Assembly (NCBI GenBank): GCA_011911785.1
Contig: GCA_011911785.1_4084.1
Length of the DNA stretch: 64,000 nt
DNA from: a phage
Reading direction: 5' to 3' (one strand)
In this document: piece after piece, positions 8,957 through 30,854 of the stretch
How the letters are laid out: every line of letters begins with the position of its first letter
Numbering within the stretch: position 1 is the first letter of the stretch
The notes under the pieces: generated by a model
Told to the model about the DNA's origin: nothing
Database searches by the model: none
The model's input: the letters and a program-made list of their open reading frames with translations, nothing else
Made by a program: the position numbers and the translations under genes

Positions 8957-9652
8957 ATGACTCAACAATTTATGTTTGGTGGTTATGCGAATGGTGAAAC
9001 AACTAACATTTCAATTCCATATGTAGTTGAAAAAGTTAATGGCAACGAACGTACTTATGATCTAGCATCTCGTATGATGCAAGACCGTATCATTTTCCTT
9101 GATACTGATTTCAACGACCAGATGGCACATATCATCAAGCAACAATTGGTGTGGTTGGATTCTCAAGGTTCTGAACCAATTACTCTTTATATTTCCTCGC
9201 CGGGTGGTAGTGTTCATGCAGGTTTGGGTATTTCTGATATTGCTAAATCTTGTGTATCACCAATCCGCACAGTAGTGATGGGTTATGCAGCATCAATGGG
9301 TTGCTACACACAATCAGTAGTGGGTACTAAAGGTTATCGTCTTGGTGGTAAACGCTCGTACTTTATGTGTCACCAAGTAAGTTCTGGTACACAAGGTCTG
9401 ATCACTGATCAGAAAATTGCACTAAAACACTCTGATGCATTGAACACATTGCTGACGAAAGAAATCGCTGAAGCTGTAGGTGTTTCTCATGAAAAACTAC
9501 TAGAAGATGCGGACCGCGATTTGTGGTTGAGTGCAGATGAAGCACTTGAGTATGGTGAACTTGGATTTATCGATGGTATTATCCTTGGTCCACGTAATGA
9601 AAAAGGTCAATACCTAGTTAAACGTCGCGGTGGCGTGGAAGAGTGGGTATAA
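8957..9652 (+). CDS. clpP: ClpP-family serine protease
   Basis: ISSPGGSVHAGLGISD and MGYAASMG match ClpP signatures (INSPGG / GQAASMG), followed by a His-containing HQVSSG segment. Confidence 0.75.
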   Translation: MTQQFMFGGYANGETTNISIPYVVEKVNGNERTYDLASRMMQDRIIFLDTDFNDQMAHIIKQQLVWLDSQGSEPITLYISSPGGSVHAGLGISDIAKSCVSPIRTVVMGYAASMGCYTQSVVGTKGYRLGGKRSYFMCHQVSSGTQGLITDQKIALKHSDALNTLLTKEIAEAVGVSHEKLLEDADRDLWLSADEALEYGELGFIDGIILGPRNEKGQYLVKRRGGVEEWV

Positions 9653-12616: not shown

Positions 12617-13030
12617 TTATGCTTTTTTACGTAGGATGTATTGTCCATTATGTAATTTAATTTTGTGAATCATGTACATAGTGCAAAACCCTTCAATACC
12701 TGCTTCTTCATCTTTCAATTTAATGAAGAAAGTATTATCTCTTAGGCTTTCTACAAGGCTTTCATCTGAATCTTCGAAATTCATGATATATGAATCTTTA
12801 TTTCTATACACCATCTGAACATATTCATAAACCTTACCGCTTTCATCGATTAGATCATAAGTATGTGCTGAACGTTGTTTTAAAATATATAGTTTACCAA
12901 GAATAGCTGCTCCATTAATTTTAGCACCAGTAATTTCGATACCATTAATAGAAAAAGGAAGTCTTCCGGTTAATGCAATTGGTTTACCCATTATTATACT
13001 TCTCCAAGTAAAGTGCATGAAAATTATCAT
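12617..13030 (-). CDS. stand-alone paralog of the N-terminal module of the large Ig-like proteins
   Basis: 137-aa protein; LPFSINGIEITGAKINGAA..YILKQRSAHTYDLIDE resembles the N-termini of the 13049..15475 and 21833..27478 products. Confidence 0.45.
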   Translation of the reverse strand: MIIFMHFTWRSIIMGKPIALTGRLPFSINGIEITGAKINGAAILGKLYILKQRSAHTYDLIDESGKVYEYVQMVYRNKDSYIMNFEDSDESLVESLRDNTFFIKLKDEEAGIEGFCTMYMIHKIKLHNGQYILRKKA

Positions 13031-13048
13031 GCACTATATTATTAAAAA

Positions 13049-15475: not shown

Positions 15476-15511
15476 ATACTTTCCTTTATAAATTGTATTG
15501 TAGTGTTATAT

Positions 15512-15519
15512 TATTTATA
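15512..15519 (-). promoter_or_regulatory. T4-type late promoter element (TATAAATA on minus strand)
   Basis: Plus-strand tatttata at 15512..15519, about 40 nt upstream of the minus-strand gene start at 15475. Confidence 0.35.
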
Positions 15520-15543
15520 TTATACCAAAAGTATTTTAGGATT

Positions 15544-15566
15544 AAAAAAAGGAGTCCGAAGACTCC
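15544..15566 (-). terminator. rho-independent terminator (minus strand)
   Basis: Hairpin ggagtc-cgaa-gactcc; on the minus strand it is followed by a 7-nt U-tract; lies just downstream of gene 15580..17283. Confidence 0.55.
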
Positions 15567-15579
15567 TTAAAATATAAAG

Positions 15580-17283
15580 TTATTGGAAACGAGCATACGG
15601 TGGAAATCTGGTTTGGTCAGGTTCATCTTGTTGGATTACACCGAATACAACAGGAACAGCAATAAATTTCTCATCTGGACAAATAACTTCAATTAATTGA
15701 CCACGCATTTTTACAAAATTATCAGTCATTATTGGAATTGTATAGTCGTATACACAGTCAACTGGTGTATAATTAACTGTAACATAACGTCTTTCATTAG
15801 GCGACATATCTGAAACTTTTGCAGGGTCTAACGAAATACCAGTCATTGGAGTACTAGTACAATTAATTATTAGTACATCTGAGTTAAAGTTTGCTGCTGA
15901 TGTAGGTGGACATACATACGACACAGTGACTGGAGAATATGGTTTAGTTGTACCAAAAAACTTCAATGTTAAATCTGTATTAGATGAACCATTGTGTTTT
16001 GCCACATCCGATGATGATTGCCAATGACCATCAGGAAGATATGAATATTCTGGAATTAACACATAATCAAATTTTACATTATTTTTGTTATACGATGATG
16101 TTGAAATATCCCCTTGTACTTTAATAGTATGTTTTTGGTCTGGGAATTTCAATCCAGTTGCTTTTGGTAATATACCAGATGCACGAACAGTGTTAGAAGA
16201 TACTTTTCCATCCAGAGATACCGCAGTAACCATGATTGAAGGTTGTGTTGGATTGTATGATGGTCCATCCCCAACTGGCTTAGTTTTAAAATATGCTCTT
16301 TCTGGAGTACTTTTATCTGCTAGATATACTAGATTCGGTGCATCATTGAACTTACAACCGTGGAATGTATTATCTGGAACATATGAGATATCAACATAAA
16401 ATTCATCACCAAAATTTAAAGTTCCAGGAACTGGATTTGATAGATTTATTATTTGAACTGATGGATAAGTTGTGTGGCATGTAAATGAAGCAGATGAACT
16501 ACCATCACTTGTGTGCCATGTAGAAACGACAGGAGTACTGGATTCTTCAATTACTGTAAAATGTGCACGGTATGGAGTACTGTCTGTTTCAAGACTCAAT
16601 ACATCTTTTGGGAAATCCCAATAACCACTTTCATTACCTAAGTATGGGTCATATAATATATCCACATAAAAATCAGTACCTTTTGGAGAAGACACTATTG
16701 ATGGATTAATTTTAACTTTAACATCAGGTTTGATAATATTACAGGTAACACCATCATAATCACCACCAACGTTACACACTAGTGTTTTAGGTTCACTATC
16801 TTTAGGTAAGACTAACGCTTTGAAATGAGCACGAGTGTCAGTACTGTCATTAATTTTCTCAAAATAAGTTGTATCAAATACCCAAGATGGATATCCTTTA
16901 TTCTTATCATATTCAACATCAATAAAGAAGTCATCCCCGACAATTACAGTAACATTCTTAGGTGTTAACTTAATTGGAACTGGTGCATCAGGATCAACAA
17001 CTGTAACATTACAAATTAGAGTTTGTGTTTTATCATAGGTTGGTACATATGAAACTGGAAATTTACCCGCTTTAATTGCAGTAAGGATTATCAGTGTTGG
17101 TGTTTCAGTGGTTGCAATTAAGCTTTTTTTATCATAATTCCAGTCCCCGACTTTCTGGTTATCAGGTGTATCAGAACTGAAATCTGCGAAAATTTGTTTA
17201 GTGTCACCAATTTTCATTTCCAAATGGGATGGATTTAATGTAACTGAAAACAAATTCTCTATATTTTTTACTTTCTTAGACAT
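15580..17283 (-). CDS. Ig-like repeat protein (second repeat class)
   Basis: 567 aa; several ~90-aa repeats with consensus GDxFxIDIxYxPDxAxHxGxW.YD...STxxRAHFKxxK and a conserved Cys. Confidence 0.5.
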   Translation of the reverse strand: MSKKVKNIENLFSVTLNPSHLEMKIGDTKQIFADFSSDTPDNQKVGDWNYDKKSLIATTETPTLIILTAIKAGKFPVSYVPTYDKTQTLICNVTVVDPDAPVPIKLTPKNVTVIVGDDFFIDVEYDKNKGYPSWVFDTTYFEKINDSTDTRAHFKALVLPKDSEPKTLVCNVGGDYDGVTCNIIKPDVKVKINPSIVSSPKGTDFYVDILYDPYLGNESGYWDFPKDVLSLETDSTPYRAHFTVIEESSTPVVSTWHTSDGSSSASFTCHTTYPSVQIINLSNPVPGTLNFGDEFYVDISYVPDNTFHGCKFNDAPNLVYLADKSTPERAYFKTKPVGDGPSYNPTQPSIMVTAVSLDGKVSSNTVRASGILPKATGLKFPDQKHTIKVQGDISTSSYNKNNVKFDYVLIPEYSYLPDGHWQSSSDVAKHNGSSNTDLTLKFFGTTKPYSPVTVSYVCPPTSAANFNSDVLIINCTSTPMTGISLDPAKVSDMSPNERRYVTVNYTPVDCVYDYTIPIMTDNFVKMRGQLIEVICPDEKFIAVPVVFGVIQQDEPDQTRFPPYARFQ

Positions 17284-17295
17284 AATAGTTTTACC

Positions 17296-19185
17296 TCATC
17301 TATTATTGATTGTTAATATACAAGCATCTACTTTTGAATTTAACGTAATATACGTAATAGGTGTAGTAGTATCACCTGTAGATTTTAATGTTCTGAACTT
17401 TGCCTTATTAATTATACTACCATCATCTAGTCTCTCAACTAATGTATCATCGAACACCCATCTCCCTGCTGGATTTGCATCACTAGGTGTAAATGTTGCA
17501 ATAACATTAAACTCTTGATACAAATCTTTTGTTAGAGATTTTGGTGTTACAGCTACTGCTGTTGGTGACGGTTGTGCTTTAATAAGACAATATGCATCTG
17601 CACTTTTACCCTCCGAATTGTAAGTTATTTGTTGAAATTGATCTGATTCTTTTAGTGCTGTAAAATATCCAACGTCAGAGGTACTAATATCTTCTTTTTG
17701 GATGTAATTAGAATCATATGTCCAAGTTCCGCTATGGGCAGCAGTATCTGGTATATAATCTATGTTTATTGCAAATGTGGATGAAACAGTTACTGCTTGT
17801 GTTTGTGGTGAAAGTTTAATACTATCCAAGGGTTTATAGGGTGATATTCTACATATATTAGAATCATTTACGGATGCAGATGTATTTGATATAAATGTAA
17901 TAGTCATAGGGTCTGTATTATATTTCAATACTGTAAAAACACCACAATCATCAGTACTGGAATCGCTTAATTCAAATGTTTCTTTATCATATATCCATAT
18001 ACCACCATGAATGGAATAATCCGGTGTATAATTTACATTAATTTTAAAAGTATCACCTACATATACAGATTCAGTTTTCGGACTTAATGAAACACTACTT
18101 GGTGGTGTACTTGAATCGATTTTACATGTATTATACCCAATTCTATTAAGGGTTGAATATGATATTTGTAATGGTGTTGGAGTTTCATCTAAAACGAAGA
18201 ATCTTACATATTGACCAGCATTTGATTTATCTACCATACGAAGCTTTGTTGCATCATATAGCCATGTACCTAATGGATATGTACCAGGTGGATCGTATTC
18301 AACATTTATTGTGAAGTAGTCACCTTTTTTAACTTCTTCGGTTCCTGGTGAAAGTGTAATAGATTTAAGTTTTTGAATGTGGCATTTATTTTTAGCAGAT
18401 ACATTTCCAGAAACAAAGTAAGTTAAATCTATTCCTTCTGGTGGTGTTTCTTCTATTGCTTTAAAATGTGCTCTTACTGTTGAGTCAGTATCATTAATCA
18501 AAGATACTTTTGTTTGGTCATAGTTCCATATACCATTCTTTTCAGCATTACTTGGAACATATGTTATGTCAATATAAAAATCTTCATCTTCCGATACTAT
18601 TTCACTACTTGGGGATAGTATAACTTCTGACGCTTCTGTACTGGAAATATGACATTGGTTAGTGTCCTTAATATCATTGTATGAAAAAGATATTAATGTA
18701 GTTTGTTGTTCTGATGATATTACTTCAAATGTACCAACATCCATATCATCATTAATTAGTTTAAGCACTGCATGATCATATGTCCATTCACCAACATGTG
18801 GTGCATCATTTGGTGTGTAAGTCACATTTACATCAAATGTATCACCAAATGAAACAACTTCATTCTTAGGAGATAGCGTGATTTTTTCAAGTGGTGTTGT
18901 ATTAATATTCACATAGCAAACCCCTGATAGTAATGGATTTGTGTCTGGAATATAAGTTATTTTTGTTGATCCTTGTTTGAGTGCAGTGAATGAAAATGTA
19001 GTCGATGTAATATCAGGTGAATCACTACTAATAAATTCTGAATCATAAACCCACTTTCCTTTTTTATATGGATAGTTGACTGGATTGAAAACAACTTCTA
19101 ATACATCAGATTCTTGTATATCTATGTTTTCATACCTAGGTATAATTCTAACACTTATTAAAGTGTCGCTATTTTGATTAGTCAT
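17296..19185 (-). CDS. Ig-like repeat protein (second repeat class)
   Basis: 629 aa; about 7 repeats of the same ~90-aa unit. Confidence 0.5.
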   Translation of the reverse strand: MTNQNSDTLISVRIIPRYENIDIQESDVLEVVFNPVNYPYKKGKWVYDSEFISSDSPDITSTTFSFTALKQGSTKITYIPDTNPLLSGVCYVNINTTPLEKITLSPKNEVVSFGDTFDVNVTYTPNDAPHVGEWTYDHAVLKLINDDMDVGTFEVISSEQQTTLISFSYNDIKDTNQCHISSTEASEVILSPSSEIVSEDEDFYIDITYVPSNAEKNGIWNYDQTKVSLINDTDSTVRAHFKAIEETPPEGIDLTYFVSGNVSAKNKCHIQKLKSITLSPGTEEVKKGDYFTINVEYDPPGTYPLGTWLYDATKLRMVDKSNAGQYVRFFVLDETPTPLQISYSTLNRIGYNTCKIDSSTPPSSVSLSPKTESVYVGDTFKINVNYTPDYSIHGGIWIYDKETFELSDSSTDDCGVFTVLKYNTDPMTITFISNTSASVNDSNICRISPYKPLDSIKLSPQTQAVTVSSTFAINIDYIPDTAAHSGTWTYDSNYIQKEDISTSDVGYFTALKESDQFQQITYNSEGKSADAYCLIKAQPSPTAVAVTPKSLTKDLYQEFNVIATFTPSDANPAGRWVFDDTLVERLDDGSIINKAKFRTLKSTGDTTTPITYITLNSKVDACILTINNR

Positions 19186-19205
19186 ATAATAACCTCCGGT
19201 ATAAA

Positions 19206-19231
19206 AGATGCCACCGAAATGGCATCTTTTT
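19206..19231. terminator. terminator-like hairpin
   Basis: agatgcca-ccgaaa-tggcatct followed by ttttt on the plus strand; lies between two minus-strand genes, so orientation and function are uncertain. Confidence 0.35.
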
Positions 19232-19243
19232 GTTTATTTGTAA

Positions 19244-21742
19244 TTAACGAATTATGAAACAGGTGGCATATGCTTCAGGTGGGGTTTGGTCAGGATTAAT
19301 TGGAGTACTGACAAATCTCATAGAGGTTGGACCTGTTGGAGCATTATCTTTAACTTTAAAGTGTGCAACATCCATAGTACTATCCTGTTGATATTCCAAT
19401 ATAGTTTCATCGACATACCATGTACCTTTATGTTGTGCACTTTCTGGTTCATATATAACTGTAACATAGAAATCACTTCCACTTGATGTTGGAATGCGGG
19501 ATGGTGTTATAGATACACTATCGGTGTTTGAAAATTCAATTGTACATGTATGCACTGCTTTATTTTTCCCATCACCATAATCATAAGTGATATCAGTATC
19601 CCCTGCCTCAACATTTTTTAAGACATAGAAACCAACTTCATCATGAGGGTAATCACTTGGCAAAAATGCAATCTTATCCATATCATAAGTCCATGTACCT
19701 TTATGTTTAGCATCGTCAGGATCGTAACTAACAACTATATTAATTGCGTCACCTGGTTTCAAGGTAGACTTCGGTGGAATTAATGAGATTGATTCAACGT
19801 CAGGATATTTCACTATACATTTATAATTCACTGGGTCAACACCATCTGGCTGGAATGAAAGAATTACACCATCTTCAGTTGTTGGTTTTAATGCTCTAAA
19901 CACAGTAACATCAGGAGTACATTTTTCTTTAACAAACTCAACGATGTCCGCTGGGTAGTTCCATTGTAGACGACCAGTATGTTGTGCAGTTAGAGGCATG
20001 TAGGTCATATTGATGGTAAATTCTTCACCAACTTCATGTGCACCATTATCGGGGGATATAGCAACACTGTCCAAATATGAATACCCAACTGTAATGTTAA
20101 ATGCAACAGCATTTTCCTCTTTCACACTTTCAGGAATAAAATAGACATTTGTTGATTTTGATGTTGATTTAGAACTCTTAACATACCCAACATCAGCAGT
20201 TGTTCCGGTCCCCATTGCTGCAACATCTTCATCTTCTATTTTCCATGTACCTGCATGTTTTGCTGTTTCTGGATTATAATTCACCTTAACAATACTGATA
20301 TCATCATACGAAATTACATCACTAGGTGGTGTATAGGAATACGATATCAAATCAGAATAATCTATTTTACAAGGATAAGAATACTTAGAATATCCAGAAT
20401 CGAAAGTTAGATTAATTGTATCATTTGGTAATCCTGCGGCAAATGTGGATTTAAGGGAAGAGAATGTATATAGATCATCTTGTGGTGCACCTGAAAGTTT
20501 CACATATTGTTCAACATCTTGTATATCCCAAATACCACTATGTCTAGCAGTGTCTGGATTATATTTCACTTTAACATTGAATACATCTAGTGCTTTGATT
20601 TCTTTTGATGGGGGATCAAATTCTATTGAAATTAAATCCGAATAGTCAGGAACTATATTGATTGCGTTTGATTGAACCCCACCAGATGATTGGAAATATA
20701 TTGGTAATGCTGAATCGAACGGTTTGATAGTACTGAAATATCCACGGGTATCAGTTGATTTAGCAGATTCAAATTTGAAATGCTCTTCATCAAAAACCCA
20801 TTTACCAGTTTTGTTTGCAGACGCTGGTTCGAATACCATATCAATGAAAAAGCCATTTGGTACTTTGACGATCTTATCATCGGATTGTGCTGTAATTGAT
20901 TTAACTGGTGAATAAGTTACAGTAACGTTACATTCAGCTTTTGCTTTATCATTACAAATATAGCTAATAGTACTGGCAGTTTGTGGTGGTGTACTTTTAA
21001 GTGCAATGAAGGTTGCACCATCTAAGCCACTTTTTGTTTCATTAAGACTGAAGACTTCCTCATCATATTTCCAAATTCCCATTTTATCCGCAGTTGTTGG
21101 ATCATATGTTAATGCTAGATAGAATGATTCACCAACTTCACAACTTACTGTTTGTGGGTCAATTGTAACTGAATTGATTGGGTTATTAGTTAAGAAGTAA
21201 TTACATTCTGCACTTACTGAACCTACTGATGCAGTTATTTTACCATTACAAGGGTCGGTTGATATAACATTAAACAATCCAGATTTTCTAGAACTAAGCA
21301 TTGGCACTAACGCAATTTGTGTGTTATCATAATCCCATACTGGTACGTCTATACCATTATCGGGTGAATATTCCACTTCAATGGTGAATTTATTAGGACT
21401 AAGCCCCGATGTCATTAAACTTGGGGTGAGTTTCATTGAACTCACTGATTGGTTTAATACTGTAATTGTACAAGTCGCTGATGATGATTTATTATCATCT
21501 GGTGTAAATGTAATGGTTGCTGTTCCTGTTTTTAGAGCAGTATAATCACATTGTAAACCACTTCTATATCCTATTTTAACAACGTCAGGATTATCACAAT
21601 CCCATTGACCTGCTTTATGTGTCCATGATTGTGGTTCATAGACTACGTTTAATTCAGATGTATCGTTAACATAGACCACTGAAGACCTACCTTCCTTAAA
21701 ATGAACGGAACGCAATGTTTCGAATTGATTTGTATTTTTCAT
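19244..21742 (-). CDS. Ig-like repeat protein (second repeat class)
   Basis: 832 aa; about 9 repeats of the same unit. Confidence 0.5.
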   Translation of the reverse strand: MKNTNQFETLRSVHFKEGRSSVVYVNDTSELNVVYEPQSWTHKAGQWDCDNPDVVKIGYRSGLQCDYTALKTGTATITFTPDDNKSSSATCTITVLNQSVSSMKLTPSLMTSGLSPNKFTIEVEYSPDNGIDVPVWDYDNTQIALVPMLSSRKSGLFNVISTDPCNGKITASVGSVSAECNYFLTNNPINSVTIDPQTVSCEVGESFYLALTYDPTTADKMGIWKYDEEVFSLNETKSGLDGATFIALKSTPPQTASTISYICNDKAKAECNVTVTYSPVKSITAQSDDKIVKVPNGFFIDMVFEPASANKTGKWVFDEEHFKFESAKSTDTRGYFSTIKPFDSALPIYFQSSGGVQSNAINIVPDYSDLISIEFDPPSKEIKALDVFNVKVKYNPDTARHSGIWDIQDVEQYVKLSGAPQDDLYTFSSLKSTFAAGLPNDTINLTFDSGYSKYSYPCKIDYSDLISYSYTPPSDVISYDDISIVKVNYNPETAKHAGTWKIEDEDVAAMGTGTTADVGYVKSSKSTSKSTNVYFIPESVKEENAVAFNITVGYSYLDSVAISPDNGAHEVGEEFTINMTYMPLTAQHTGRLQWNYPADIVEFVKEKCTPDVTVFRALKPTTEDGVILSFQPDGVDPVNYKCIVKYPDVESISLIPPKSTLKPGDAINIVVSYDPDDAKHKGTWTYDMDKIAFLPSDYPHDEVGFYVLKNVEAGDTDITYDYGDGKNKAVHTCTIEFSNTDSVSITPSRIPTSSGSDFYVTVIYEPESAQHKGTWYVDETILEYQQDSTMDVAHFKVKDNAPTGPTSMRFVSTPINPDQTPPEAYATCFIIR

Positions 21743-21832
21743 TATATAATCTCCTATAAATGAATTTGTATTATGGGGAACTTATAATTAAGCTCCCCGT
21801 CGAACGAGTTTATATTATACACCTCCGATATT

Positions 21833-24800
21833 TTAAAAATCTGCTGTTATGGTTATTGTCTTGGTAATCCCAGCCTCTTTAACTTCATACGTAAGCGTAA
21901 TTGGATTCTCTGGCTTCTTGATTAGATAAAAATGAACTATCGTTTTCATTGGAGGCCAGTTCACTGAAAGATACGTCTCGTCATAAGTTAATGTACCAGT
22001 ATATAACGCATCGTCAGGATGGTTTGTAAGGAATGCAACATACATTTTACCTAATGCTGTGATGTTTACATGATCAGACTTTGTGGTCTTTTCAATAAAA
22101 TCAACTGATACCAAAGGTGACGCAGTTGATACAATATGAACAGAATTAGTTGAATATGCATCATGACCTGTACCTTGGGTGTACTTAAATTTTACATCAA
22201 TCCCTTCTGGTGGAGTTTCTAATATTGTCATTAAGTTATGAGAATCACTAAAAACCTTATAATCATATGGAGGAAGTGCAACAACTGATTCATGTAATCT
22301 ACCATCACCTATTGCATCAGGTGGATTTACGGTCATAACTACATAGTTTCCATATGAGTTTGCTTTTGTTGTAAACGAATCTGGTGTTATGGTGAATGAT
22401 TCAACATATGGTCTTAGTGGAGTTATCTGTGCTGTTGCAGGAGCGTAACCAGGAATTGTATAAACTAAATCAAACGGAGCACCAAGCACTTCAGCAGTTT
22501 TATCCACTGGTATTTCATCCTCGTCAAAATAATCTATACCGTAAACTGGTTGTTGATAATAACTATCACCAACAGATGGATCGTAAGCTGTAACTTTAAA
22601 ATATGCTTCAGTCAATGTACTCTTAGCTGGGATATATTCGCAGTAGTTTAATGCCTCACCACTAAATGTACCAGCAAGTGGTATAACATTAGATGGTTTG
22701 AAAACAATATTAACTTTAAATTCCATACCTTTGTGGTAATCATTTTTACCAGGCAAACCAAGACTTATTGATTGTATAATATCATGAACAACCGTACATT
22801 TGTTTGTTGCAGTTTTACCCGAACTTGTATAAATCAATGAAATTGGATTTGGATCTGATTTCAATGCTTTAAAATGTGCACGGTCAGGGGTACTGTCTGA
22901 AAGTAATTCAAAATACCCAACTGCAACTGACCCATCAGATAAACTATAAGACCAAGAACCTTTATGATCTGCTGTATCAGGTGTATATGTGATATCAATA
23001 TAGAAATCATCACCAGCATCCAACTCTTCTGTAGCTGGAGATAATGAAATAGATTCCAATACACTATAATCAACATAACATATAGTTTTATTCGAAACAA
23101 TGTTACCACAAATAAACTGCAATTCTAACTCATCAACCGTTTTAATAGCTTTAAAGTGTGCACGGTCTGGTGTACTATCACTCTCAAGTGTTAAGTACTG
23201 GTCAAATCCAGATGTATTCCACGTACCAGTATGTTCAGCACTATCTGGTGTATATGTAATATCAATATAGAAATCATCACCAGTCTTCACTTCTATAGTA
23301 CTTGGCGAAATAGTAATTGCAGACAATGCACTATGTTGTATTGTACAAGTAGATGAACTAGATTTACCAGAACTGGTATATGTCAGTGTTATTGGTGAAC
23401 TGCTATATTTTTTAACTTGGAAGTGTGCTTTATCTGGAGTACTATCACTTTCAAGAGATAAGTATTCTTCAAAATCACTGGTATTCCATGTACCAATATG
23501 CTGTGCAGTATCAGGTGTATATGTGATATCAATATAGAAATCATCGCCAATAGCTGGAGTTACCGATTCAGGGGACAATTTAACATCAGTTAATTGTGAA
23601 TAAGGTATAACTGTTACATCAGCACTTTTCTTTGCACTAGTAAATGTTAACTTTTTAGAATCAGGTAGCTGTTTGATTACATCAAAATAAGCTTCACTTT
23701 CAGTACTTCTAGAGGTTAGATATGAGAAATAATCAGTTTCATAACTCCATTTACCAGATTTCAAAGCGGTATCCGGCACATAAGTTATAGTAACATCAAA
23801 CGTATCACCATCATTAACATTAATACTAGGTGGATTTACTGATACAGATTCTAACTTGTCATAAAGAATAGAGCATGTATTTTCTGTGGTTACACCAGCA
23901 CTAGAGAATGATATTTGTTGTGTACTTTCGGTTGATGGTGGCTTTGCAATAACTTCAAATACCCCAACATCGGCGGTGCTTTTTGATGTATCTAACTTAA
24001 GATATGTTTCATCATACGCCCAATCACCTTTATGTTCAGCAGTGCTTGGTTCGTATGTTATAGCAATATCAATAATATCACCAACTGATACGGTTTCATT
24101 ATCAGGTGATAATGTCAATTTAACCAACTTGTCATATTTCGCAGTACATGTATTTTCAGCATATTTTCCATTAGTACTGGTATATTTCAATACAGTTGGT
24201 GTATCTGAACGTTTGAGTACTTGGAATTGCTGCTGTTCATAATTAATTGGTTCAATCAATTTAATCATATCAGTATCATATTCCCATGTACCAATATGCT
24301 GAGCACTATCTGGTGTATAGGATATGTCTATTGTGAATGTATCACCATTCAAAACAGTTTCAGAATCAGGAGTTAAATCCACTGATGTTAATAAATCATA
24401 ACGTGCATCACATGTATTAGTTTTAGTGATTCCTGCACTAGTAAAAGATATTACCAATGGTGTATCAGATTTTTTCAGCACTTTAAATTGTGGTTTATCG
24501 TAATCATCTGGGTTCAATAACTCCAAATGGTCTTTATCATAATCCCATGTACCAATGTGTTGTGCTGTATCAGGTGTATATGTAATATCAATTACAAATG
24601 TTTCACCCAATGGGACAATTTCACTAGCTGGTGTTATTGAGAAATCGGTTAATTTATCATACTTAGCATCGCAAATACTATTACCCTTAACACTACCTTG
24701 TTCAAATGTTATTGTTAATGGAGTATCAGACTTTTTGATTACTGTAAAATTACCTTTCTCGTACTCAACACTTTGAGCCGCATTATATTGTAAGTACTCT

Positions 24801-27478
24801 TTGTCATAAACCCATTCACCAATGTGTTGAGCCGTATCAGGTTCATATTTCACTTCAATATCAAAAGATTCACCCAACGGAACAGTTTCATTTGCAGGTG
24901 ATAAAGTAATCCCAGTAAGTGCATCATAACTTGCAACACATGTGTTTGTTGCGGAGTGTCCAGTTGACTTATATGTTAATGTTAATGGAGTATCTGATTT
25001 CTTAATAACCTTAAATATCCCTTTTTCATATTCTCCATTATTAAGATGTTCCAAATATTCATGGTCGAATAACCAAACACCAAAATGATATGCAGTATCA
25101 GGTTCATATTTTATATCAATAGTGAATGTTGAACCTAATGGGGCAATTTCGGATGTAGGAGAAAGTGAAATCCCAGTTAATACATCATGTGATGAATCAA
25201 CGTTAACATATGCTGGATATGCATTACCATTTTGGTAGCTCATACTAACATTTGGTGATTTCTCAATAATTTTAAAGTGAGCACGTTCAGGTGTACTGTC
25301 ATCTAAATGAGTCAAATAATATTGATTGTAATACCACGCACCAGCATGTTCTGCATTATCAGGTTCATATGTTAAATCAATATAGAAATCAGTTCCGACT
25401 GGTGCAATAATTTTAGAAGGATTTGCTGTTATTATAGTTGGTGTTACAAAAGGAACACTACCATAAATGGTATTACTTGTAATGGAACCAGACTTATAGG
25501 TAAATGCAAGTTTATCTTGTGTATCTTTAATAGCTAAGAATCTTGCATAATTTGGTGCTTCTGGGTCCATTCCTTGATACTCAAAATGTTCTTTGTCATA
25601 TTCCCATGTACCAGTGTGTTCTGCTTCATCAGGTGTATAAGTTAGTTCAATATATGCAAGTTCACCAACAGTTAATATTTGGAATCGTATAGGGTCATAA
25701 GCAGCAATTGTAAGTGATTCCAAATCTTTATAATCAACTTTACACTCATTAGTTGCAGTAACTTTACCTTCTGAGTACACTAAATCAATTTTATCAATAT
25801 GTTTTAATGCTTTAAAGTGTGCTTTATCAGCAGTTGACTTAGTACTATCAAATGTGATATATTCTTTAAACGTATCAGTATTCCATGCACCTTCGTGTTT
25901 AGCGGTGTCTGGTACATAAGATATCTCAATATCAAATTCATCACCAATCTTCACAGTTTCTGATGTAGGATTCAGTACTAGTGAAGTTAAATCAGAATAT
26001 AGGACATTGAAGCTAACTGTTTTAGCATCACCACCACCATCTGGGGTAAATGTTGCAGTTGTGGTTCCTTGCTTCTTGGCTACGTAGTACATTACATCAT
26101 CGGTACTTTTAGTTGTATCTTCTTCAACGATCCCAACTGGTTCAAATGTCCAAGTACCACCTTTTTGTGCATTGTTTGGTGTATAAGTAATGTCAATTTT
26201 ACCAGTACTTTCTGGTTTGATATTGGATACAGTACTAGGTGTTAACACTACACTTTTCAAATCAGCATACTCAACCGTGAAGTTGACTTCTGGTAAATCT
26301 TTAGTATAATCTGCACTTGGTGTAAATGTAGCTTTTGTACTACCATGTTCAAGTAGCTGGTAATCAAATTTAGTATCTGTATGCGAAATACTTTTTACTA
26401 TATTAGTATCATCAATTGACCATGTTCCACCTTGTTTGGCGTTATCAGGGGTATAGATTATTTCAATCGTGCCAGATGAACCCGCTTTGTCATCTACAGA
26501 GGCAGGTTTGAGTTCTACATTGTCCAACGCAGCATAAGTTATGTCAATTGTTGCAGCCGCAGTTTTAGTTTTATCTTCATTTAATGTGAAGAGTACACTG
26601 GTGGTTGGGTGAACATTTTCTTTGACAGCTATTGCTTTAAACGTTATACTATTTTCGTCTTCACTTACAACTTCAAGAACATTTGTGTTGTATCCACTCC
26701 ATACACCACCACGTTTAGCTGGGGCATAATCGACTGGATCATAAACAACAGATACAGTAAATGTATCATTAAGTTTTACATCAATTGGGTTTGGGTTGAG
26801 AGAAACACTAAAGAGGACGTTAGGATCATCATGTAAATGACCGAACGCGGTTGATTTTAAATGAGGTTTGTTTGTGGGAGTGAATGATATTTCTACTGGA
26901 ATATCACCATCAATGACTCCTGCTTGGAGGATAATACTATTTTTATCACTATGTACTTCAGTTAAATGTTCAGTTGGGTATGTCCATGTACCAGATTGGT
27001 CAGGCCAATCTTTCGGAGAGAAGTAAGCAGTGAATTGCATTTTATCATTTGAATAAAGAACAAAATCATCTGGCTTTATTATAACTTTAGACAACGAATT
27101 TGGCTCCACGTTCGTTCTTCTGAAAATTATTTCACCATTATGTAATTTTATTTTATTACTTTGATATTGAATACCAAAACCATACTTATTATTAATAGCA
27201 TCAGCTTCTTTTATGCAAAATGTATTATTTGCTAAAGATTTAGCAATTTCAGCATCGTCATCATCATACAACAATGTTGATTTATCTTTATTTCTACCTG
27301 TGATTTTTATATCTTTGTAAATCTTGAAATTTTCAGATATTAAATCATATGAATCGAATGTTCTTTGTTTTATAACATACAATTCTTTAACAAATACTTG
27401 CCCTTCTATCTTTGCAGCAGTAACCTGCAATCCACCTATAACAAATGGAAATTGATCTAAGCCAGCTATTGGTTTCAT
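21833..27478 (-). CDS. giant Ig-like repeat protein with shared N-terminal module
   Basis: 1881 aa; N-terminus paralogous to 13049..15475 and 12617..13030, then about 18 repeats of the ~90-aa unit. Confidence 0.55.
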   Translation of the reverse strand: MKPIAGLDQFPFVIGGLQVTAAKIEGQVFVKELYVIKQRTFDSYDLISENFKIYKDIKITGRNKDKSTLLYDDDDAEIAKSLANNTFCIKEADAINNKYGFGIQYQSNKIKLHNGEIIFRRTNVEPNSLSKVIIKPDDFVLYSNDKMQFTAYFSPKDWPDQSGTWTYPTEHLTEVHSDKNSIILQAGVIDGDIPVEISFTPTNKPHLKSTAFGHLHDDPNVLFSVSLNPNPIDVKLNDTFTVSVVYDPVDYAPAKRGGVWSGYNTNVLEVVSEDENSITFKAIAVKENVHPTTSVLFTLNEDKTKTAAATIDITYAALDNVELKPASVDDKAGSSGTIEIIYTPDNAKQGGTWSIDDTNIVKSISHTDTKFDYQLLEHGSTKATFTPSADYTKDLPEVNFTVEYADLKSVVLTPSTVSNIKPESTGKIDITYTPNNAQKGGTWTFEPVGIVEEDTTKSTDDVMYYVAKKQGTTTATFTPDGGGDAKTVSFNVLYSDLTSLVLNPTSETVKIGDEFDIEISYVPDTAKHEGAWNTDTFKEYITFDSTKSTADKAHFKALKHIDKIDLVYSEGKVTATNECKVDYKDLESLTIAAYDPIRFQILTVGELAYIELTYTPDEAEHTGTWEYDKEHFEYQGMDPEAPNYARFLAIKDTQDKLAFTYKSGSITSNTIYGSVPFVTPTIITANPSKIIAPVGTDFYIDLTYEPDNAEHAGAWYYNQYYLTHLDDSTPERAHFKIIEKSPNVSMSYQNGNAYPAYVNVDSSHDVLTGISLSPTSEIAPLGSTFTIDIKYEPDTAYHFGVWLFDHEYLEHLNNGEYEKGIFKVIKKSDTPLTLTYKSTGHSATNTCVASYDALTGITLSPANETVPLGESFDIEVKYEPDTAQHIGEWVYDKEYLQYNAAQSVEYEKGNFTVIKKSDTPLTITFEQGSVKGNSICDAKYDKLTDFSITPASEIVPLGETFVIDITYTPDTAQHIGTWDYDKDHLELLNPDDYDKPQFKVLKKSDTPLVISFTSAGITKTNTCDARYDLLTSVDLTPDSETVLNGDTFTIDISYTPDSAQHIGTWEYDTDMIKLIEPINYEQQQFQVLKRSDTPTVLKYTSTNGKYAENTCTAKYDKLVKLTLSPDNETVSVGDIIDIAITYEPSTAEHKGDWAYDETYLKLDTSKSTADVGVFEVIAKPPSTESTQQISFSSAGVTTENTCSILYDKLESVSVNPPSINVNDGDTFDVTITYVPDTALKSGKWSYETDYFSYLTSRSTESEAYFDVIKQLPDSKKLTFTSAKKSADVTVIPYSQLTDVKLSPESVTPAIGDDFYIDITYTPDTAQHIGTWNTSDFEEYLSLESDSTPDKAHFQVKKYSSSPITLTYTSSGKSSSSTCTIQHSALSAITISPSTIEVKTGDDFYIDITYTPDSAEHTGTWNTSGFDQYLTLESDSTPDRAHFKAIKTVDELELQFICGNIVSNKTICYVDYSVLESISLSPATEELDAGDDFYIDITYTPDTADHKGSWSYSLSDGSVAVGYFELLSDSTPDRAHFKALKSDPNPISLIYTSSGKTATNKCTVVHDIIQSISLGLPGKNDYHKGMEFKVNIVFKPSNVIPLAGTFSGEALNYCEYIPAKSTLTEAYFKVTAYDPSVGDSYYQQPVYGIDYFDEDEIPVDKTAEVLGAPFDLVYTIPGYAPATAQITPLRPYVESFTITPDSFTTKANSYGNYVVMTVNPPDAIGDGRLHESVVALPPYDYKVFSDSHNLMTILETPPEGIDVKFKYTQGTGHDAYSTNSVHIVSTASPLVSVDFIEKTTKSDHVNITALGKMYVAFLTNHPDDALYTGTLTYDETYLSVNWPPMKTIVHFYLIKKPENPITLTYEVKEAGITKTITITADF

Positions 27479-27611: not shown

Positions 27612-27640
27612 CTTGACATAATTGATCAATTATTGTACTA
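27612..27640 (+). promoter_or_regulatory. sigma70-like promoter (TTGACA-17 nt-TACTAT)
   Basis: Perfect -35 TTGACA at 27612..27617, 17-nt spacer, -10-like TACTAT; in the divergent intergenic region upstream of 27677. Confidence 0.45.
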
Positions 27641-27676
27641 TTATTTATGTTCCTTAACTCAAATCCGAGGTAATCA

Positions 27677-28282
27677 ATGAAACGAATCTTGAAAGAGATT
27701 GTACAAACCGTTGTTTTAATCGCTGCATTAAACTTTCCGGCAGCGGCAGAAGTTTCAAAAAAATCATCTGTTTTTCTATTAAATGAACATGTTGTGTCAA
27801 TTGATGGTGAACTAAATGATGAAACTGTACAAGAAGTGAAGAAGTTGTGGAAAGAAACAAGATTTAAAATTTTAACAATTACATCACCTGGTGGAGATTT
27901 TGATGCAGGATTAGATTTGGGATTGTTTGTGGCTGCTAAAAAGTTAACTGTTTATGTCCCAAAGCAATGTAATTCGTCTTGTAGTCTGGTTTTTTTCTCT
28001 GCATCATCTGAACGTAGGGATATGAGTGATACCGCAGTGATGGGTTTACATAACATCTCACTAGTATCTACGAATGGTGCAGATCCAGATACGACATTCG
28101 TTTCAGTTAGACAGTTGATGGAGTTTACACATCAAGTCTCAACTAAAGTTGGGTATCTTTTTACACTGTACGCACATAACGGTATCCCCGCTGAAACACT
28201 CATTGATATCAGTACTAAACATGGTGAGGATATCGTTGTCTTACGAAGATCAGATCTCGTTAAATGGGGAATCATTCAATAA
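27677..28282 (+). CDS. secreted ClpP-like protein
   Basis: N-terminal signal-peptide-like segment (VVLIAALNFPAAAEV); ILTITSPGGDFDAG resembles the ClpP SPGG motif. Confidence 0.4.
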   Translation: MKRILKEIVQTVVLIAALNFPAAAEVSKKSSVFLLNEHVVSIDGELNDETVQEVKKLWKETRFKILTITSPGGDFDAGLDLGLFVAAKKLTVYVPKQCNSSCSLVFFSASSERRDMSDTAVMGLHNISLVSTNGADPDTTFVSVRQLMEFTHQVSTKVGYLFTLYAHNGIPAETLIDISTKHGEDIVVLRRSDLVKWGIIQ

Positions 28283-28409: not shown

Positions 28410-28673
28410 ATGACAGAATTATCACATCTTCAAGGCTGGACAGAGTTCATCTTCTATGCTACTATAGTTACATATGGAATCATTGTTCTTTTATCAGTGA
28501 TTATGGCAAGTGATTTCAAGAGTGGTTTTCTTGAAGAAAATGGTGAGTTTTCTTCTAAAACTGAAAAGTACTTTTATTATTTCTTTAAAATTTCGTATAC
28601 AATTTTACTCATAATTTTGGGTTTACTATTGTATTTCATGTACACAATCTTAGATGTAATGCATCTTTTATAA
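28410..28673 (+). CDS. small membrane protein
   Basis: Two hydrophobic helices; start set to ATG 28410 with 'aagga' RBS. Confidence 0.35.
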   Translation: MTELSHLQGWTEFIFYATIVTYGIIVLLSVIMASDFKSGFLEENGEFSSKTEKYFYYFFKISYTILLIILGLLLYFMYTILDVMHLL

Positions 28674-28684
28674 CGGAGATATCA

Positions 28685-29287
28685 ATGACTTGTATTATTG
28701 CTTACACTGATGGTAACACATCTTTTATCGCGGGTGACAAACTGGGTAGTAATGGTTTCACTAAAGCAATTCAAACTGAACCAAAAGTGTTTGAAAAAGA
28801 ATTCATCAAAATCGATGAAAGTGGATTGAATCGCACCAAAGAAGTTATGGCAATGGGATACACGTCGAGCTTCCGCATGGGACAATTGCTGACGTATAAA
28901 CTTGATTTACCTGAACAGCAATCAAACCAAACATTCTCACAGTACTTAGTACTTGAGGTAATCCCACGTATTCGCACACTCTTCAAAGAAGAATGGGGTG
29001 CTCGTGATACAACTCAAGACGTTGGTGGTGGACAGTTTATTATTCTCCACAATCATACAATTTATGAAGTTCAAGAGGATTTTTCAGTACTCCAACCTAA
29101 GACACAAATTACATCTGTTGGTAGTGGTACATATCATGCAATTGCAGCTATGCAAGCATATATTGAAGTTCAAAAAGAAACAGGTGTTAAGATGGTTGAT
29201 CGCACCGATTCTATCTTCAAAATTGTAAGTGATAATGTTACCAGCGTTAGTGCTGAGTATGATTTACTAAGCTATCCTAAGCTGTAA
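28685..29287 (+). CDS. HslV/proteasome-beta-like Ntn hydrolase
   Basis: N-terminus MTCIIAYTDGNTSFIAGDKLG resembles HslV (TTIVSV..NG.VVIAGDGQ) with Thr at position 2; C-terminal SVGSGTYHAIAA resembles the HslV GSGG..A motif. Confidence 0.45.
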   Translation: MTCIIAYTDGNTSFIAGDKLGSNGFTKAIQTEPKVFEKEFIKIDESGLNRTKEVMAMGYTSSFRMGQLLTYKLDLPEQQSNQTFSQYLVLEVIPRIRTLFKEEWGARDTTQDVGGGQFIILHNHTIYEVQEDFSVLQPKTQITSVGSGTYHAIAAMQAYIEVQKETGVKMVDRTDSIFKIVSDNVTSVSAEYDLLSYPKL

Positions 29288-29296
29288 TACAAAAAA

Positions 29297-29321: not shown

Positions 29322-29347
29322 AATTTAATAAGGAGAGTATTATAACT

Positions 29348-29560
29348 ATGATAACTATCAATTACTTTTCACTATGCTTTGTTTATTTTGTTGTTGTATT
29401 TCTAGCAGTTGTAGCGTACAATAATATTAAATGTATATATAAAATTATCAAAAACAAAGAGAAATTCAATGGATGGATGATATATCACATTGTCATCTCG
29501 GTTGTGTGTATCTTATTTGTATACGATTTGAGTTCATTAGGTACAGTAGGTAAGCTATGA
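29348..29560 (+). CDS. small membrane protein
   Basis: 70-aa ORF with two hydrophobic helices. Confidence 0.35.
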   Translation: MITINYFSLCFVYFVVVFLAVVAYNNIKCIYKIIKNKEKFNGWMIYHIVISVVCILFVYDLSSLGTVGKL

Positions 29561-30309
29561 TTTCTGACTCTTTTATAAAAAATAAAGGTAATAAACGTGT
29601 ATTGGTTATTTCCGGTGCAGGTCTATCCGTTGAAAGTGGGATGGAACCGTTTCGCATGGACGATGGCCTATGGGATCAATTTCAAATAAATGATGTATGT
29701 AACATTGCACGTCTTAGTACTAAGTATCATTTAGTACACACTTTCTATAATACATTACGTGTTAAAATGAAAGATTGTGTTCCTAATGATATGCATTATT
29801 ATATCAAATCTCTAGAAGATACATACGGTGATAACTTTTTACATATGACTTCGAATATGGATGATCTCTATACTCGTATTGGTGGCAATGAATTAAAGTT
29901 ACATGGTAATTTAAAAGAAGTTATTGAGAATTTTACAATTGGTGGTGACGATTATAGTATTGTGGATTGTGGTTATGAACCGTACATTCCGAAAGAAGGT
30001 GTCTTTGCGAAACCAAACGTAGTGTTCATTGGTGAATATTATCGTTATGTTGATGGTGAAAAACTCCCAATATACGATGAGCGTAATTTAGTATTGCAAT
30101 CCTTAACAGAAGATGATACAGTTGTAGTCATTGGTAGCAGTGACACAGTACTGAAATGGTCACATCTGGTTGCGTGTTTACCATGCTTTAGTGTTAATAT
30201 CAACATCAGAAAAAATGATAACGATTTCATGTTCAATGAAAAAATTATAAAACCAGCTACAAAAGCGATTCCAGTACTGGAAACTATCATTAAGGATAGA
30301 ATGAAATGA
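29557..30309 (+). CDS. SIR2-family (sirtuin-like) NAD-binding protein, no zinc ribbon
   Basis: GAGLSVESGMEPFR..GLW (sirtuin GAGIS.ESGIP.FR..GLW), TSNMDDLYTRIG (sirtuin TQNID.LH.RAG), catalytic-His context LHGNL; no CxxC pairs. Confidence 0.7.
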   Translation: MISDSFIKNKGNKRVLVISGAGLSVESGMEPFRMDDGLWDQFQINDVCNIARLSTKYHLVHTFYNTLRVKMKDCVPNDMHYYIKSLEDTYGDNFLHMTSNMDDLYTRIGGNELKLHGNLKEVIENFTIGGDDYSIVDCGYEPYIPKEGVFAKPNVVFIGEYYRYVDGEKLPIYDERNLVLQSLTEDDTVVVIGSSDTVLKWSHLVACLPCFSVNINIRKNDNDFMFNEKIIKPATKAIPVLETIIKDRMK

Positions 30310-30854
30310 TTCGAGAAGTACCTCTAGGTGAGTATGGTAAACGAGCAAACTTTGTATTCTGTTACTTCTTTGCTCGAAATTGTAACCCATATAAAGGTTA
30401 TGATTTAAATGATATCCCTGTTGTGAATCTGGTATTACTCCAGCTTCGTTGGGATGGTTTACTGGGTGGTTGTGGTGGAACAGTTGAAGATACCGATGCC
30501 ACCTTAGAAGATGCACTATTCCGTGAAATTCAGGAAGAGATGGATTATAATATTTTCATCGAACAACTGAAACCATTGAAAACTTACGAACTATATCCAG
30601 GAGCACATACTCATAGCTATAGTTATGAAGTTACTTACGAAGAATTGAAAGCGATTCGCGATGGATACAGTACTGCTAAACATGCAAGTGCAGAAGTGGC
30701 TGGTGTTAATTTATGTCACATTTCTCGTTATTCAAAGGGACAAAACCGAGAAGCAGGATATAATAATCTTATGACACAAAACTTCATAGGAACTGCTAAA
30801 ATGGAATTAGAACATCTTGTTCAATCCGAGAATTTACTGATTAGTTACTTATAA
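30306..30854 (+). CDS. hypothetical protein, possible degenerate Nudix hydrolase
   Basis: GGTVEDTDATLEDALFREIQEEMDY contains REIQEE resembling the Nudix box core, but spacing is non-canonical. Confidence 0.35.
   Translation: MIREVPLGEYGKRANFVFCYFFARNCNPYKGYDLNDIPVVNLVLLQLRWDGLLGGCGGTVEDTDATLEDALFREIQEEMDYNIFIEQLKPLKTYELYPGAHTHSYSYEVTYEELKAIRDGYSTAKHASAEVAGVNLCHISRYSKGQNREAGYNNLMTQNFIGTAKMELEHLVQSENLLISYL

What the first reader, a model, noticed from the sequence alone, without database searches (positions are those of the whole stretch)
27677..28282. Second, secreted ClpP-like gene in addition to the canonical clpP at 8957
The 201-aa product has a signal-peptide-like N-terminus and an SPGG-type segment (ILTITSPGGDFDAG) resembling ClpP, but otherwise diverges from the cytoplasmic ClpP at 8957..9652. 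A periplasmic ClpP-fold protein in a phage could act in lysis, superinfection exclusion or envelope remodelling.
Basis: partly seen in the sequence, partly recalled or inferred. Interest (0 to 1): 0.5.

Follow-up and report, generated by a model that had tools for sequence, protein, structure and literature searches.

The report
Exported ClpP-like protease of a jumbo phage
This jumbo coliphage gene encodes a ClpP-shaped serine protease that carries an export signal and most likely works outside the cytoplasm; it belongs to a very large, unstudied family of exported bacterial proteins, but its target is unknown.

Summary
ORF 27677..28282 (+) encodes a 201-aa protein containing ILTITSPGGDFDAG. 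The window is an Asteriusvirus jumbo phage, 98% identical to Escherichia phage A4. Orthologues are already annotated "protease (ClpP-like)" (121Q gp473) or "ClpP/crotonase-like domain protein" (A4_467).

- **Active site:** family profiles place invariant Ser100 and His125 on ClpP's catalytic Ser and His, and Gly72 on the PGG motif that in ClpP supplies the oxyanion hole. ClpP's Asp position is not conserved.
- **Export signal:** all 23 phage orthologues keep a basic start and a short apolar core. 21 of 23 have an AxA-type cleavage site.

The gene is not a true ClpP: Pfam scores below threshold and there is no room for ClpP's N-terminal extension. It belongs to a huge unmodelled family (8,621 representatives) that UniRef calls COG3904. 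That family has the signature SxGG…CxSxC…H, and most members have signal peptides or lipoboxes.

I infer a Sec-exported, ATP-independent Ser-His peptidase whose nucleophile is braced by a Cys98-Cys102 disulfide, expressed from a conserved sigma-70-like promoter. It is not found in the phAPEC6 virion. The substrate and role are unknown. Interest is moderate.

The parts
27613..27641 (+). Sigma-70-like promoter (TTGACA, 17 nt, TACTAT), about 35 nt upstream of the start codon
   Evidence: This is the best promoter-like match in 27300-29700 (10 of 12 positions). The TTGAC / TAnTAT pair is conserved upstream of the orthologues in A4, 121Q, phAPEC6 and Ecwhy_1 although the flanks differ. A TTGACA is also present in Hallingskeid and EJP2, but not in RaK2. 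Function is inferred, not shown.
27667..27670 (+). Ribosome-binding site GAGG, 6 nt before the ATG
   Evidence: Read directly from the sequence. GAGG or AGGA is present at the same place in the orthologue alignment.
27677..28282 (+). Gene for the 201-aa exported ClpP-fold protein (stop codon included)
   Evidence: PHROG 26024 'protease' E=2.4e-60 over the full length. 99.5% identical to A4_467.
27677..27748 (+). Predicted Sec signal peptide, residues 1-24 (MKRILKEIVQTVVLIAALNFPAAA, cleavage before EV)
   Evidence: Basic n-region, short apolar core, Pro at -4, and Ala at -3 and -1. 21 of 23 orthologues have a (-3,-1) site, and the median apolar core is 10 residues. In the AlphaFold model this is a detached helix (residues 2-18) followed by a disordered linker (20-25). 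Cleavage is inferred.
27749..28279 (+). Mature ClpP-fold domain, residues 25-201
27884..27895 (+). S70-P-G72-G73 motif (the ClpP 'SPGG' segment; in ClpP the first Gly contributes to the oxyanion hole)
   Evidence: S70, G72 and G73 are invariant in 23 phage orthologues and in 53 diverse family members. The motif aligns to ClpP SPGG/SQGG in the HMM alignments. The oxyanion-hole role comes from established ClpP knowledge.
27968..27982 (+). C98-N-S100-S-C102: the predicted nucleophile Ser100 flanked by two invariant cysteines
   Evidence: C98, S100 and C102 are invariant in alignments A2 and A3. The motif aligns to ClpP A-A-S-M-G with Ser100 on the catalytic Ser. These are the only two Cys in the protein. 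The disulfide is inferred.
28049..28051 (+). His125, the predicted general base
   Evidence: Invariant in A2 and A3. Aligned on the catalytic His of ClpP (M-I-H-Q).
28410..28673 (+). Downstream small membrane protein (87 aa from MTELSHLQG), possibly in the same transcript
   Evidence: ORF. Annotated as a CDS in A4 (A4_468) and 121Q (gp474). No Pfam hit. Any link to the protease is only positional, and the gene is absent from RaK2, XaC1 and Hallingskeid at this place.
28685..29287 (+). Downstream HslV-family (Ntn, Thr2) peptidase gene, probably the last gene of the same unit
   Evidence: ORF. Annotated 'peptidase HslV family' in 121Q gp475. Followed by a terminator-like hairpin at 29296-29316. 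Adjacent only in Asteriusvirus.
8957..9652 (+). The other, cytoplasmic-type ClpP homologue, used for comparison
   Evidence: Pfam CLP_protease E=7.7e-42. Contains AASMG (Ser), MCHQ (His) and DADRD (Asp). No N-terminal hydrophobic segment. It is the only other window ORF that the exported family's profile hits (E=3e-6).

Best explanation
The gene encodes a Sec-exported, ATP-independent serine peptidase with the ClpP fold. It is a phage branch of the large, uncharacterised bacterial family that UniRef labels COG3904. Proposed steps follow, each marked shown or inferred. (1) Host RNA polymerase transcribes the gene from a sigma-70-like promoter, so it is probably made early (inferred from a conserved consensus). 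(2) The 24-residue N-terminal signal peptide sends the protein through Sec, and signal peptidase I cuts after Ala-Ala-Ala24 (inferred from conserved sequence properties). (3) In the oxidising periplasm, Cys98 and Cys102 form a disulfide. They sit two residues either side of the nucleophile, at the positions where ClpP has small Ala/Gly residues, so the disulfide would lock the strand-turn-helix that presents Ser100 (inferred). (4) Ser100 acts with His125 as a catalytic dyad, and the Gly72 region provides the oxyanion hole. Conservation and alignment to ClpP's catalytic residues are shown; activity is not. The third ClpP residue, Asp, has no conserved counterpart. (5) The enzyme cleaves one or more envelope or periplasmic proteins, of the host or of the phage, during infection. 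The substrate is unknown. It is not a virion or head-maturation protease.
Against: No dedicated signal-peptide predictor could be run and there are no localisation data. The n-region holds a nearly invariant Glu7 and the core holds Gln10, which is a little unusual for a signal peptide. Two of 23 orthologues lack a recognisable cleavage site (the RaK2/K64-1 type and P0005) and could stay membrane-anchored. ClpP's Asp171-equivalent (Asp185) is not conserved, so full catalytic competence is unproven. Pfam CLP_protease is below its gathering score. Promoter-like sites in the region are no more frequent than in shuffled sequence (12 found against 12.5 expected). No genomic neighbour points to a substrate.
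Confidence: 0.65

Rival explanations
1. It is a membrane-anchored peptidase that works like SppA or NfeD. The N-terminal helix is not cleaved and tethers the catalytic domain to the periplasmic face of the inner membrane. There it clears signal peptides or clips membrane proteins during infection.
Confidence: 0.15
2. It is a cytoplasmic second ClpP subunit. It would co-assemble with the phage ClpP (8957..9652) or with host ClpP into a mixed ring, as ClpP1/ClpP2 pairs do, and the N-terminal helix is not an export signal.
For: Both genes are conserved a few kb apart in Rak2-like phages. The best PDB sequence hits include ClpP1 of Listeria, a subunit of a mixed ClpP1/P2 complex that lacks the Asp (the Listeria point is from my own knowledge).
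Against: The N-terminal signal-peptide properties are conserved while its sequence drifts. The wider family has lipoboxes and signal peptides. An invariant Cys pair is typical of oxidising compartments. The fold starts about 6 residues after the predicted cleavage site, which leaves no room for ClpP's N-terminal extension, which in ClpP forms the axial loops that dock the ATPase (the axial-loop role is established ClpP knowledge). Pfam is below threshold.
Confidence: 0.07
3. It is a virion-associated or head-maturation protease, as some GenBank records annotate it (for example fEgEco12 and vB_Ec-M-J, 'head maturation protease').
For: Weak NCBIfam hits to Clp_rel_HeadMat (E=0.0075 for the window protein; 39 of 53 family members at E<=0.01). 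Some record annotations say so. The divergent neighbour is a structural Ig-domain protein.
Against: It is absent from the phAPEC6 virion proteome, which does contain a T4 gp21-like prohead protease. It is not flagged as a virion protein in 121Q, where neighbours are. An export signal is incompatible with prohead assembly in the cytoplasm. It is not located in a head-gene module.
Confidence: 0.04
4. It is a non-catalytic ClpP-fold protein (a pseudo-protease or binding protein), or a ClpP/crotonase-fold enzyme with a non-peptidase chemistry.
Against: The only invariant residues across about 20%-identical members are exactly the ClpP nucleophile, base and PGG positions plus the two Cys. That pattern is what selection on catalysis predicts. 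ClpP scores well above the crotonases.
Confidence: 0.09

Closest known systems
COG3904 family (COG functional category S, function unknown; named as such by UniRef)
   Same: Same invariant signature: SxGG, CxSxC around the predicted nucleophile, and a His about 25 residues later. Same ClpP-like core of about 170 residues. N-terminal signal peptide, lipobox or membrane helices are the rule.
   Different: The phage clade is compact (190-210 aa) and forms its own tight group: 16 representatives at E<=1e-30, then a gap to bacterial members at about 1e-20. It has extra clade-specific invariant residues (N126, S128, Y165, P171). Bacterial members are often longer (220-300 aa) or carry tandem copies of the domain. 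No member has a known function, so this family gives a name but not a mechanism.
ClpP (MEROPS S14, Pfam PF00574), including the phage's own copy at 8957..9652
   Different: It has an export signal in place of ClpP's N-terminal extension. No conserved Asp. A Cys pair flanks the Ser where ClpP has Ala and Gly. It scores below the Pfam gathering threshold. The predicted compartment has no ATP or AAA+ partner, so it cannot work as a chaperone-fed chamber in the ClpXP sense (inference).
SppA (signal peptide peptidase A, MEROPS S49) and NfeD/STOPP (1510-N)
   Different: From established knowledge, both use a Ser-Lys dyad and are membrane-anchored, whereas this family keeps the ClpP-type His and most phage members look cleavable. 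Fold similarity is lower than to ClpP.
ClpP-related phage head maturation proteases (NCBIfam NF045542; PHROG 94, 1684)
   Same: Phage-encoded proteins with the ClpP fold. Weak profile hits.
   Different: Those enzymes act inside proheads in the cytoplasm and lie in head-gene modules. This protein has an export signal, lies among nucleotide and NAD metabolism genes, and is absent from the phAPEC6 virion.

Membership tests
ClpP (MEROPS S14 / Pfam PF00574) | Scores above the curated Pfam gathering threshold for CLP_protease | tested here: not met
   15.0 bits, E=0.023, against a cut-off of 20.2. NCBIfam ClpP models score at most 17 bits against cut-offs above 200.
ClpP (MEROPS S14 / Pfam PF00574) | ClpP/crotonase alpha/beta fold with ClpP as the nearest structural neighbour | tested here: met
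ClpP (MEROPS S14 / Pfam PF00574) | Catalytic Ser and His at the canonical positions | tested here: met
   Ser100 and His125 are invariant and aligned on the ClpP catalytic Ser and His in three independent alignments (conservation).
ClpP (MEROPS S14 / Pfam PF00574) | Catalytic Asp completing the Ser-His-Asp triad | tested here: not met
   The equivalent position (Asp185 in the window protein) varies among D, E, R, G, N, T and K in orthologues. In the A3-to-ClpP alignment it falls on Ser/Gly columns.
ClpP (MEROPS S14 / Pfam PF00574) | Cytoplasmic (or organellar matrix) location with N-terminal axial loops and a docking pocket for a AAA+ unfoldase | tested here: not met
   There is a predicted signal peptide, and the folded domain starts at about residue 31, only 6 residues after the predicted cleavage site. 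The docking pocket itself could not be tested.
ClpP (MEROPS S14 / Pfam PF00574) | Heptameric rings stacked into a tetradecameric chamber | not testable with these tools
   Only monomer prediction was available. A long helix is present at 144-167 where ClpP has its handle helix, but the segment before it (126-143) is coil with low confidence.
COG3904-like exported ClpP-fold family | Signature SxGG ... CxSxC ... H in a ClpP-like core | tested here: met
   These are the only invariant columns among 53 members at about 20% identity. The signature is present in 140 of 146 top representatives and in the UniRef-named COG3904 proteins P0040 and P0046.
COG3904-like exported ClpP-fold family | Significant profile similarity to named COG3904 proteins | tested here: met
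   The phage-orthologue profile A1 hits P0040 (E=1.1e-5) and P0046 (E=3.2e-5), both named 'COG3904 family protein' by UniRef. The exhaustive search gives 535 representatives at E<=1e-10. I could not run the COG3904 model itself.
COG3904-like exported ClpP-fold family | N-terminal export signal (signal peptide, lipobox or membrane helix) | tested here: met
   Window protein: basic n-region, apolar core, and AAA followed by EV. 21 of 23 orthologues have a (-3,-1) site. 117 of 146 family representatives have an N-terminal hydrophobic segment, against 2 of 41 window ORFs. This used a home-made criterion, not SignalP.
SppA / NfeD (MEROPS S49 and relatives) | Ser-Lys catalytic dyad | tested here: not met
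   No invariant Lys in A2 or A3. The invariant base candidate is His125 at the ClpP position.
Phage head maturation protease, ClpP-related | Associated with the prohead or virion and encoded in the head-morphogenesis module | tested here: not met
   The orthologue gp346c is absent from the phAPEC6 virion proteome. Neighbours are dCMP deaminase, Sir2, Nudix and NAD-salvage genes.

The most novel reading that the evidence does not exclude
The phage exports, early in infection, a protease that becomes active only once DsbA forms a disulfide around its nucleophile in the periplasm (a compartment-gated ClpP-like enzyme). It uses this enzyme to cut a specific host envelope protein, for example a receptor-associated, Tol/Ton or envelope-stress or defence-sensing component, so as to block superinfection or envelope-based defence. 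That would give the first function and mechanism for the whole COG3904 family of more than 8,000 sequence clusters.
Probability: 0.2. Interest if true: 0.65.

Novelty: new member of a known kind. Interest (0 to 1): 0.38.

Why it matters
As far as I know, phage-encoded proteases that act in the periplasm are hardly documented, and I found none in the paper searches. An early, exported protease conserved across Rak2-like jumbo phages of Escherichia, Klebsiella, Salmonella, Erwinia and Xanthomonas would be a plausible tool for remodelling the host envelope.

The analysis also gives a testable active-site model (Ser100/His125, with a Cys98-Cys102 brace) for a very large orphan family of exported bacterial proteins. 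That family currently has no Pfam or NCBIfam model and no characterised member. The phage protein is small and single-domain, so it would be a convenient entry point.

Against this, the gene is already catalogued as a ClpP-like protease, and nothing here shows what it cuts.

Tried and rejected
- **Single-sequence library scans.** Pfam and NCBIfam gave only sub-threshold ClpP/NfeD hits. PADLOC gave nothing for this protein, its two neighbours or the ClpP at 8957.
- **Word-indexed homologue search with the single protein.** It found only 6 close phage relatives. An alignment query and the exhaustive profile search were needed to reach bacterial relatives.
- **Bacterial gene context.** The COG3904 protein P0040 sits as a stand-alone gene among unrelated transporters and regulators, which gives no functional clue.
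- **Literature.** 'COG3904' appears in two papers, once in a gene table as category S and once apparently mislabelled as copG. Searches on ClpP-like, periplasmic and phage terms, and on Asteriusvirus plus protease, found no characterisation.
- **afdb50 fold search.** This library was unavailable.
- **IMG/VR scan.** It returned only 121Q and RaK2 again.
- **Third catalytic residue.** The ClpP Asp position is not conserved, and no other acidic residue is invariant.
- **Disulfide geometry.** It could not be measured because model coordinates are not exposed.
- **Head-maturation protease reading.** Rejected on the proteome, the gene context and the export signal.
- **Defence or anti-defence module with the HslV-like neighbour.** Considered, but the adjacency holds only in Asteriusvirus.

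Full report
**1. Observation**

The ORF at 27677..28282 (+) is real and is the only long ORF at that place. It encodes 201 aa that start MKRILKEIVQTVVLIAALNFPAAAEV and contain ILTITSPGGDFDAG. A GAGG ribosome-binding site lies 6 nt upstream of the ATG.

The gene at 8957..9652 is a clear ClpP-family protein (Pfam CLP_protease E=7.7e-42). It carries AASMG, MCHQ and DADRD. It stays below the NCBIfam ClpP equivalog cut-offs, so "canonical" is slightly generous.

**2. Source and existing annotation**

The window is an Asteriusvirus jumbo phage. The region is 98.3% identical to Escherichia phage A4, and the protein is 99.5% identical to A4_467, annotated "ClpP/crotonase-like domain protein".

- Orthologues at 26-64% identity occur in 48 phage records from Escherichia, Klebsiella, Salmonella, Erwinia and Xanthomonas.
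- They are annotated as hypothetical protein, "protease", "protease (ClpP-like)" (121Q gp473) and, in some records, "head maturation protease".
- PHROG 26024 "protease" matches over the full length at E=2.4e-60.

The existence of a second ClpP-like gene in these phages is therefore already on record.

**3. Is it ClpP-like?**

The single sequence is not convincing on its own: Pfam gives E=0.023 and 15 bits, below the cut-off of 20.2. Three stronger lines of evidence settle it.

- **Profiles.** A profile of 23 orthologues hits PDB ClpP chains at E=4.6e-4. A profile of 53 diverse family members hits them at E=1.3e-7, with NfeD at 8e-4.
- **Reciprocity.** The same profiles find the window's own ClpP as the only other hit among 170 window ORFs (E=3e-6).

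**4. Active site**

All alignments use the same register.

| This protein | ClpP equivalent | Role in ClpP |
|---|---|---|
| S70-P-G72-G73 | SPGG | first Gly lines the oxyanion hole (established knowledge) |
| C98-N-S100-S-C102 | A-A-S-M-G | Ser100 on the catalytic Ser |
| L-H125-N | I-H-Q | His125 on the catalytic His |

- S70, G72, G73, C98, S100, C102 and H125 are invariant in the 23 phage orthologues.
- They are the only invariant columns among 53 members that are about 20% identical.
- The position of ClpP's catalytic Asp (Asp185 here) is not conserved.

The family therefore looks like a Ser-His dyad enzyme, or it takes a third residue from elsewhere.

**5. Is it exported?**

No signal-peptide predictor was available, so I tested the properties directly.

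- All 23 orthologues have a basic N-terminus and a 14-22-residue uncharged segment, with an apolar core of median 10 residues. That is typical of signal peptides and too short for a stable membrane span.
- 21 of 23 end in a small-x-small (-3,-1) site. In the window protein this is AAA followed by EV after residue 24, with Pro at -4.
- The sequence of this segment drifts while its properties persist.
- The model shows a detached helix (residues 2-18) and a disordered linker (20-25) before the globular domain.

Independent support comes from the wider family.

- The exhaustive profile search finds 8,621 representatives at E<=1e-3 and 535 at E<=1e-10.
- Of the top 146, 140 carry SxGG..CxSxC..H.
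- 117 have an N-terminal hydrophobic segment, against 2 of 41 window ORFs of at least 150 aa judged by the same criterion.
- 21 have lipobox-like signals.
- UniRef names members of this set "COG3904 family protein", and those proteins carry TSPGG / LCASACT / GFHG.
- The family has no Pfam or NCBIfam model of its own.
- I found no characterisation in the literature. COG3904 appears only as functional category S, function unknown.

**6. The cysteine pair**

Cys98 and Cys102 are the only cysteines in the window protein. They are invariant across the family.

They occupy the positions two residues before and after the nucleophile, where ClpP has Ala and Gly. In strand-turn-helix nucleophile elbows these two positions pack against each other; this point is established structural knowledge that I apply here by inference. 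In a family that is otherwise marked for export, an invariant Cys pair is most simply read as a disulfide that braces the nucleophile turn. It might also keep the enzyme inactive until it reaches an oxidising compartment. This is inference, because I could not measure the geometry.

**7. Context and expression**

- **Promoter.** TTGACA-17-TACTAT at 27613-27641 is the best sigma-70-like match in the region. It is conserved upstream of the Asteriusvirus orthologues, although the surrounding sequence differs. That suggests transcription by host polymerase, so probably early. Promoter-like matches as such are not enriched in the region.
- **Downstream genes.** Next come an 87-aa membrane protein, an HslV-family peptidase, and a terminator-like hairpin at 29296-29316. 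This trio exists only in Asteriusvirus.
- **Other clades.** In RaK2, XaC1, Hallingskeid and EJP2 the gene is followed, directly or after one intervening gene, by NAD-salvage genes.
- **Conserved synteny.** The shared order is ClpP, several small genes, dCMP deaminase, a divergently transcribed structural gene, then this gene.
- **Bacterial context.** One COG3904 gene examined in its bacterial setting gave no clue.

**8. Not a structural protease**

The phAPEC6 orthologue gp346c is not among the 62 virion proteins found by mass spectrometry. The divergent neighbour gp347 is present at 75% coverage. A T4 gp21-like "prohead core scaffold and protease" (gp227c) is also present (PMC7247149). In 121Q, neighbouring genes are flagged as virion proteins but gp473 is not.

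**9. Verdict**

- It is not a member of ClpP proper. It fails the Pfam threshold, the Asp, the N-terminal extension and the compartment tests.
- It is the phage branch of the COG3904-like exported family.
- The most likely mechanism is a Sec-exported, ATP-independent Ser100-His125 peptidase with a disulfide-braced nucleophile, acting on an unknown envelope target during infection (confidence about 0.65).
- The main rival is an uncleaved, membrane-anchored version of the same enzyme.
- Roles in lysis, superinfection exclusion or envelope remodelling remain speculation.

Novelty is modest because the gene is already annotated as a ClpP-like protease. What is added here is the export signal, the family assignment and the active-site model.

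Noticed in passing
window 12617..27478, minus strand (ORFs 13049..15475, 15580..17283, 17296..19185, 19244..21742, 21833..27478): Five large minus-strand ORFs (808, 567, 629, 832 and 1881 aa) sit between dCMP deaminase and the exported protease. The 1881-aa product is built of many Ig-like repeats (Pfam HYDIN/VesB-like Ig, E=8e-16). From about 14.0 to 27.0 kb there is no near match in the phage collection, and the closest relative, A4, has only a 722-aa gene there. It looks like a hypervariable fibre or 'whisker' cassette, and it explains why the two ClpP-like genes are 18 kb apart here against about 7 kb in A4.
   Followed up: partly
window 28685..29287 (+): A 200-aa protein starting M-T-C-I-I-A is annotated 'peptidase HslV family' in 121Q gp475. 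Thr2 would be the Ntn nucleophile. It has no Pfam hit above threshold (only Connectase N-terminal, E=0.007). A third protease-like gene therefore lies right next to the exported one, but only in Asteriusvirus.
   Followed up: partly
window 28410..28673 (+) and 29348..29560 (+): Two small predicted membrane proteins (87 and 70 aa) with no family match flank the HslV-like gene. A bidirectional terminator-like hairpin at 29296-29316 separates the protease cluster from the Sir2-Nudix pair.
   Followed up: no
window 8957..9652 (+): The cytoplasmic-type ClpP is annotated 'head maturation protease' in RefSeq for 121Q and RaK2. However, phAPEC6 has a separate gp21-like prohead protease in its virion proteome, and the CBB homologue (CBB_104) was seen in virions with a single peptide only. 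The head-maturation label is doubtful, so its role (host-protein degradation with host ClpX/ClpA?) is open.
   Followed up: partly
window 29557..30854 (+): Sir2-family (E=1.9e-19) and Nudt16-like Nudix (E=3.9e-19) genes overlap by ATGA. In RaK2, XaC1, Hallingskeid and EJP2 the same neighbourhood also holds NMN adenylyltransferase and nicotinamide phosphoribosyltransferase. This is an NAD+ salvage and turnover module next to the protease gene.
   Followed up: no
proteins P0090, P0091, P0106 (representatives): Some bacterial relatives carry the exported ClpP-like domain in tandem: 2 copies in a 537-aa protein, 4 matched stretches in a 773-aa protein and 6 in a 1339-aa protein. P0092 has two copies in which both Cys are replaced by Ala (AFSVAAN / AFSSAAN) and the first copy also lacks the His. 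The Cys brace is therefore not universal.
   Followed up: partly
alignment A3 member (unidentified): One of the 53 family members hit NCBIfam NF058629, 'PA_0111/PP_0108 family redox-active disulfide protein' (E=1.7e-4). I did not identify which member or which region. It could be a lead on the redox role of the Cys pair or just an unrelated extra domain.
   Followed up: no
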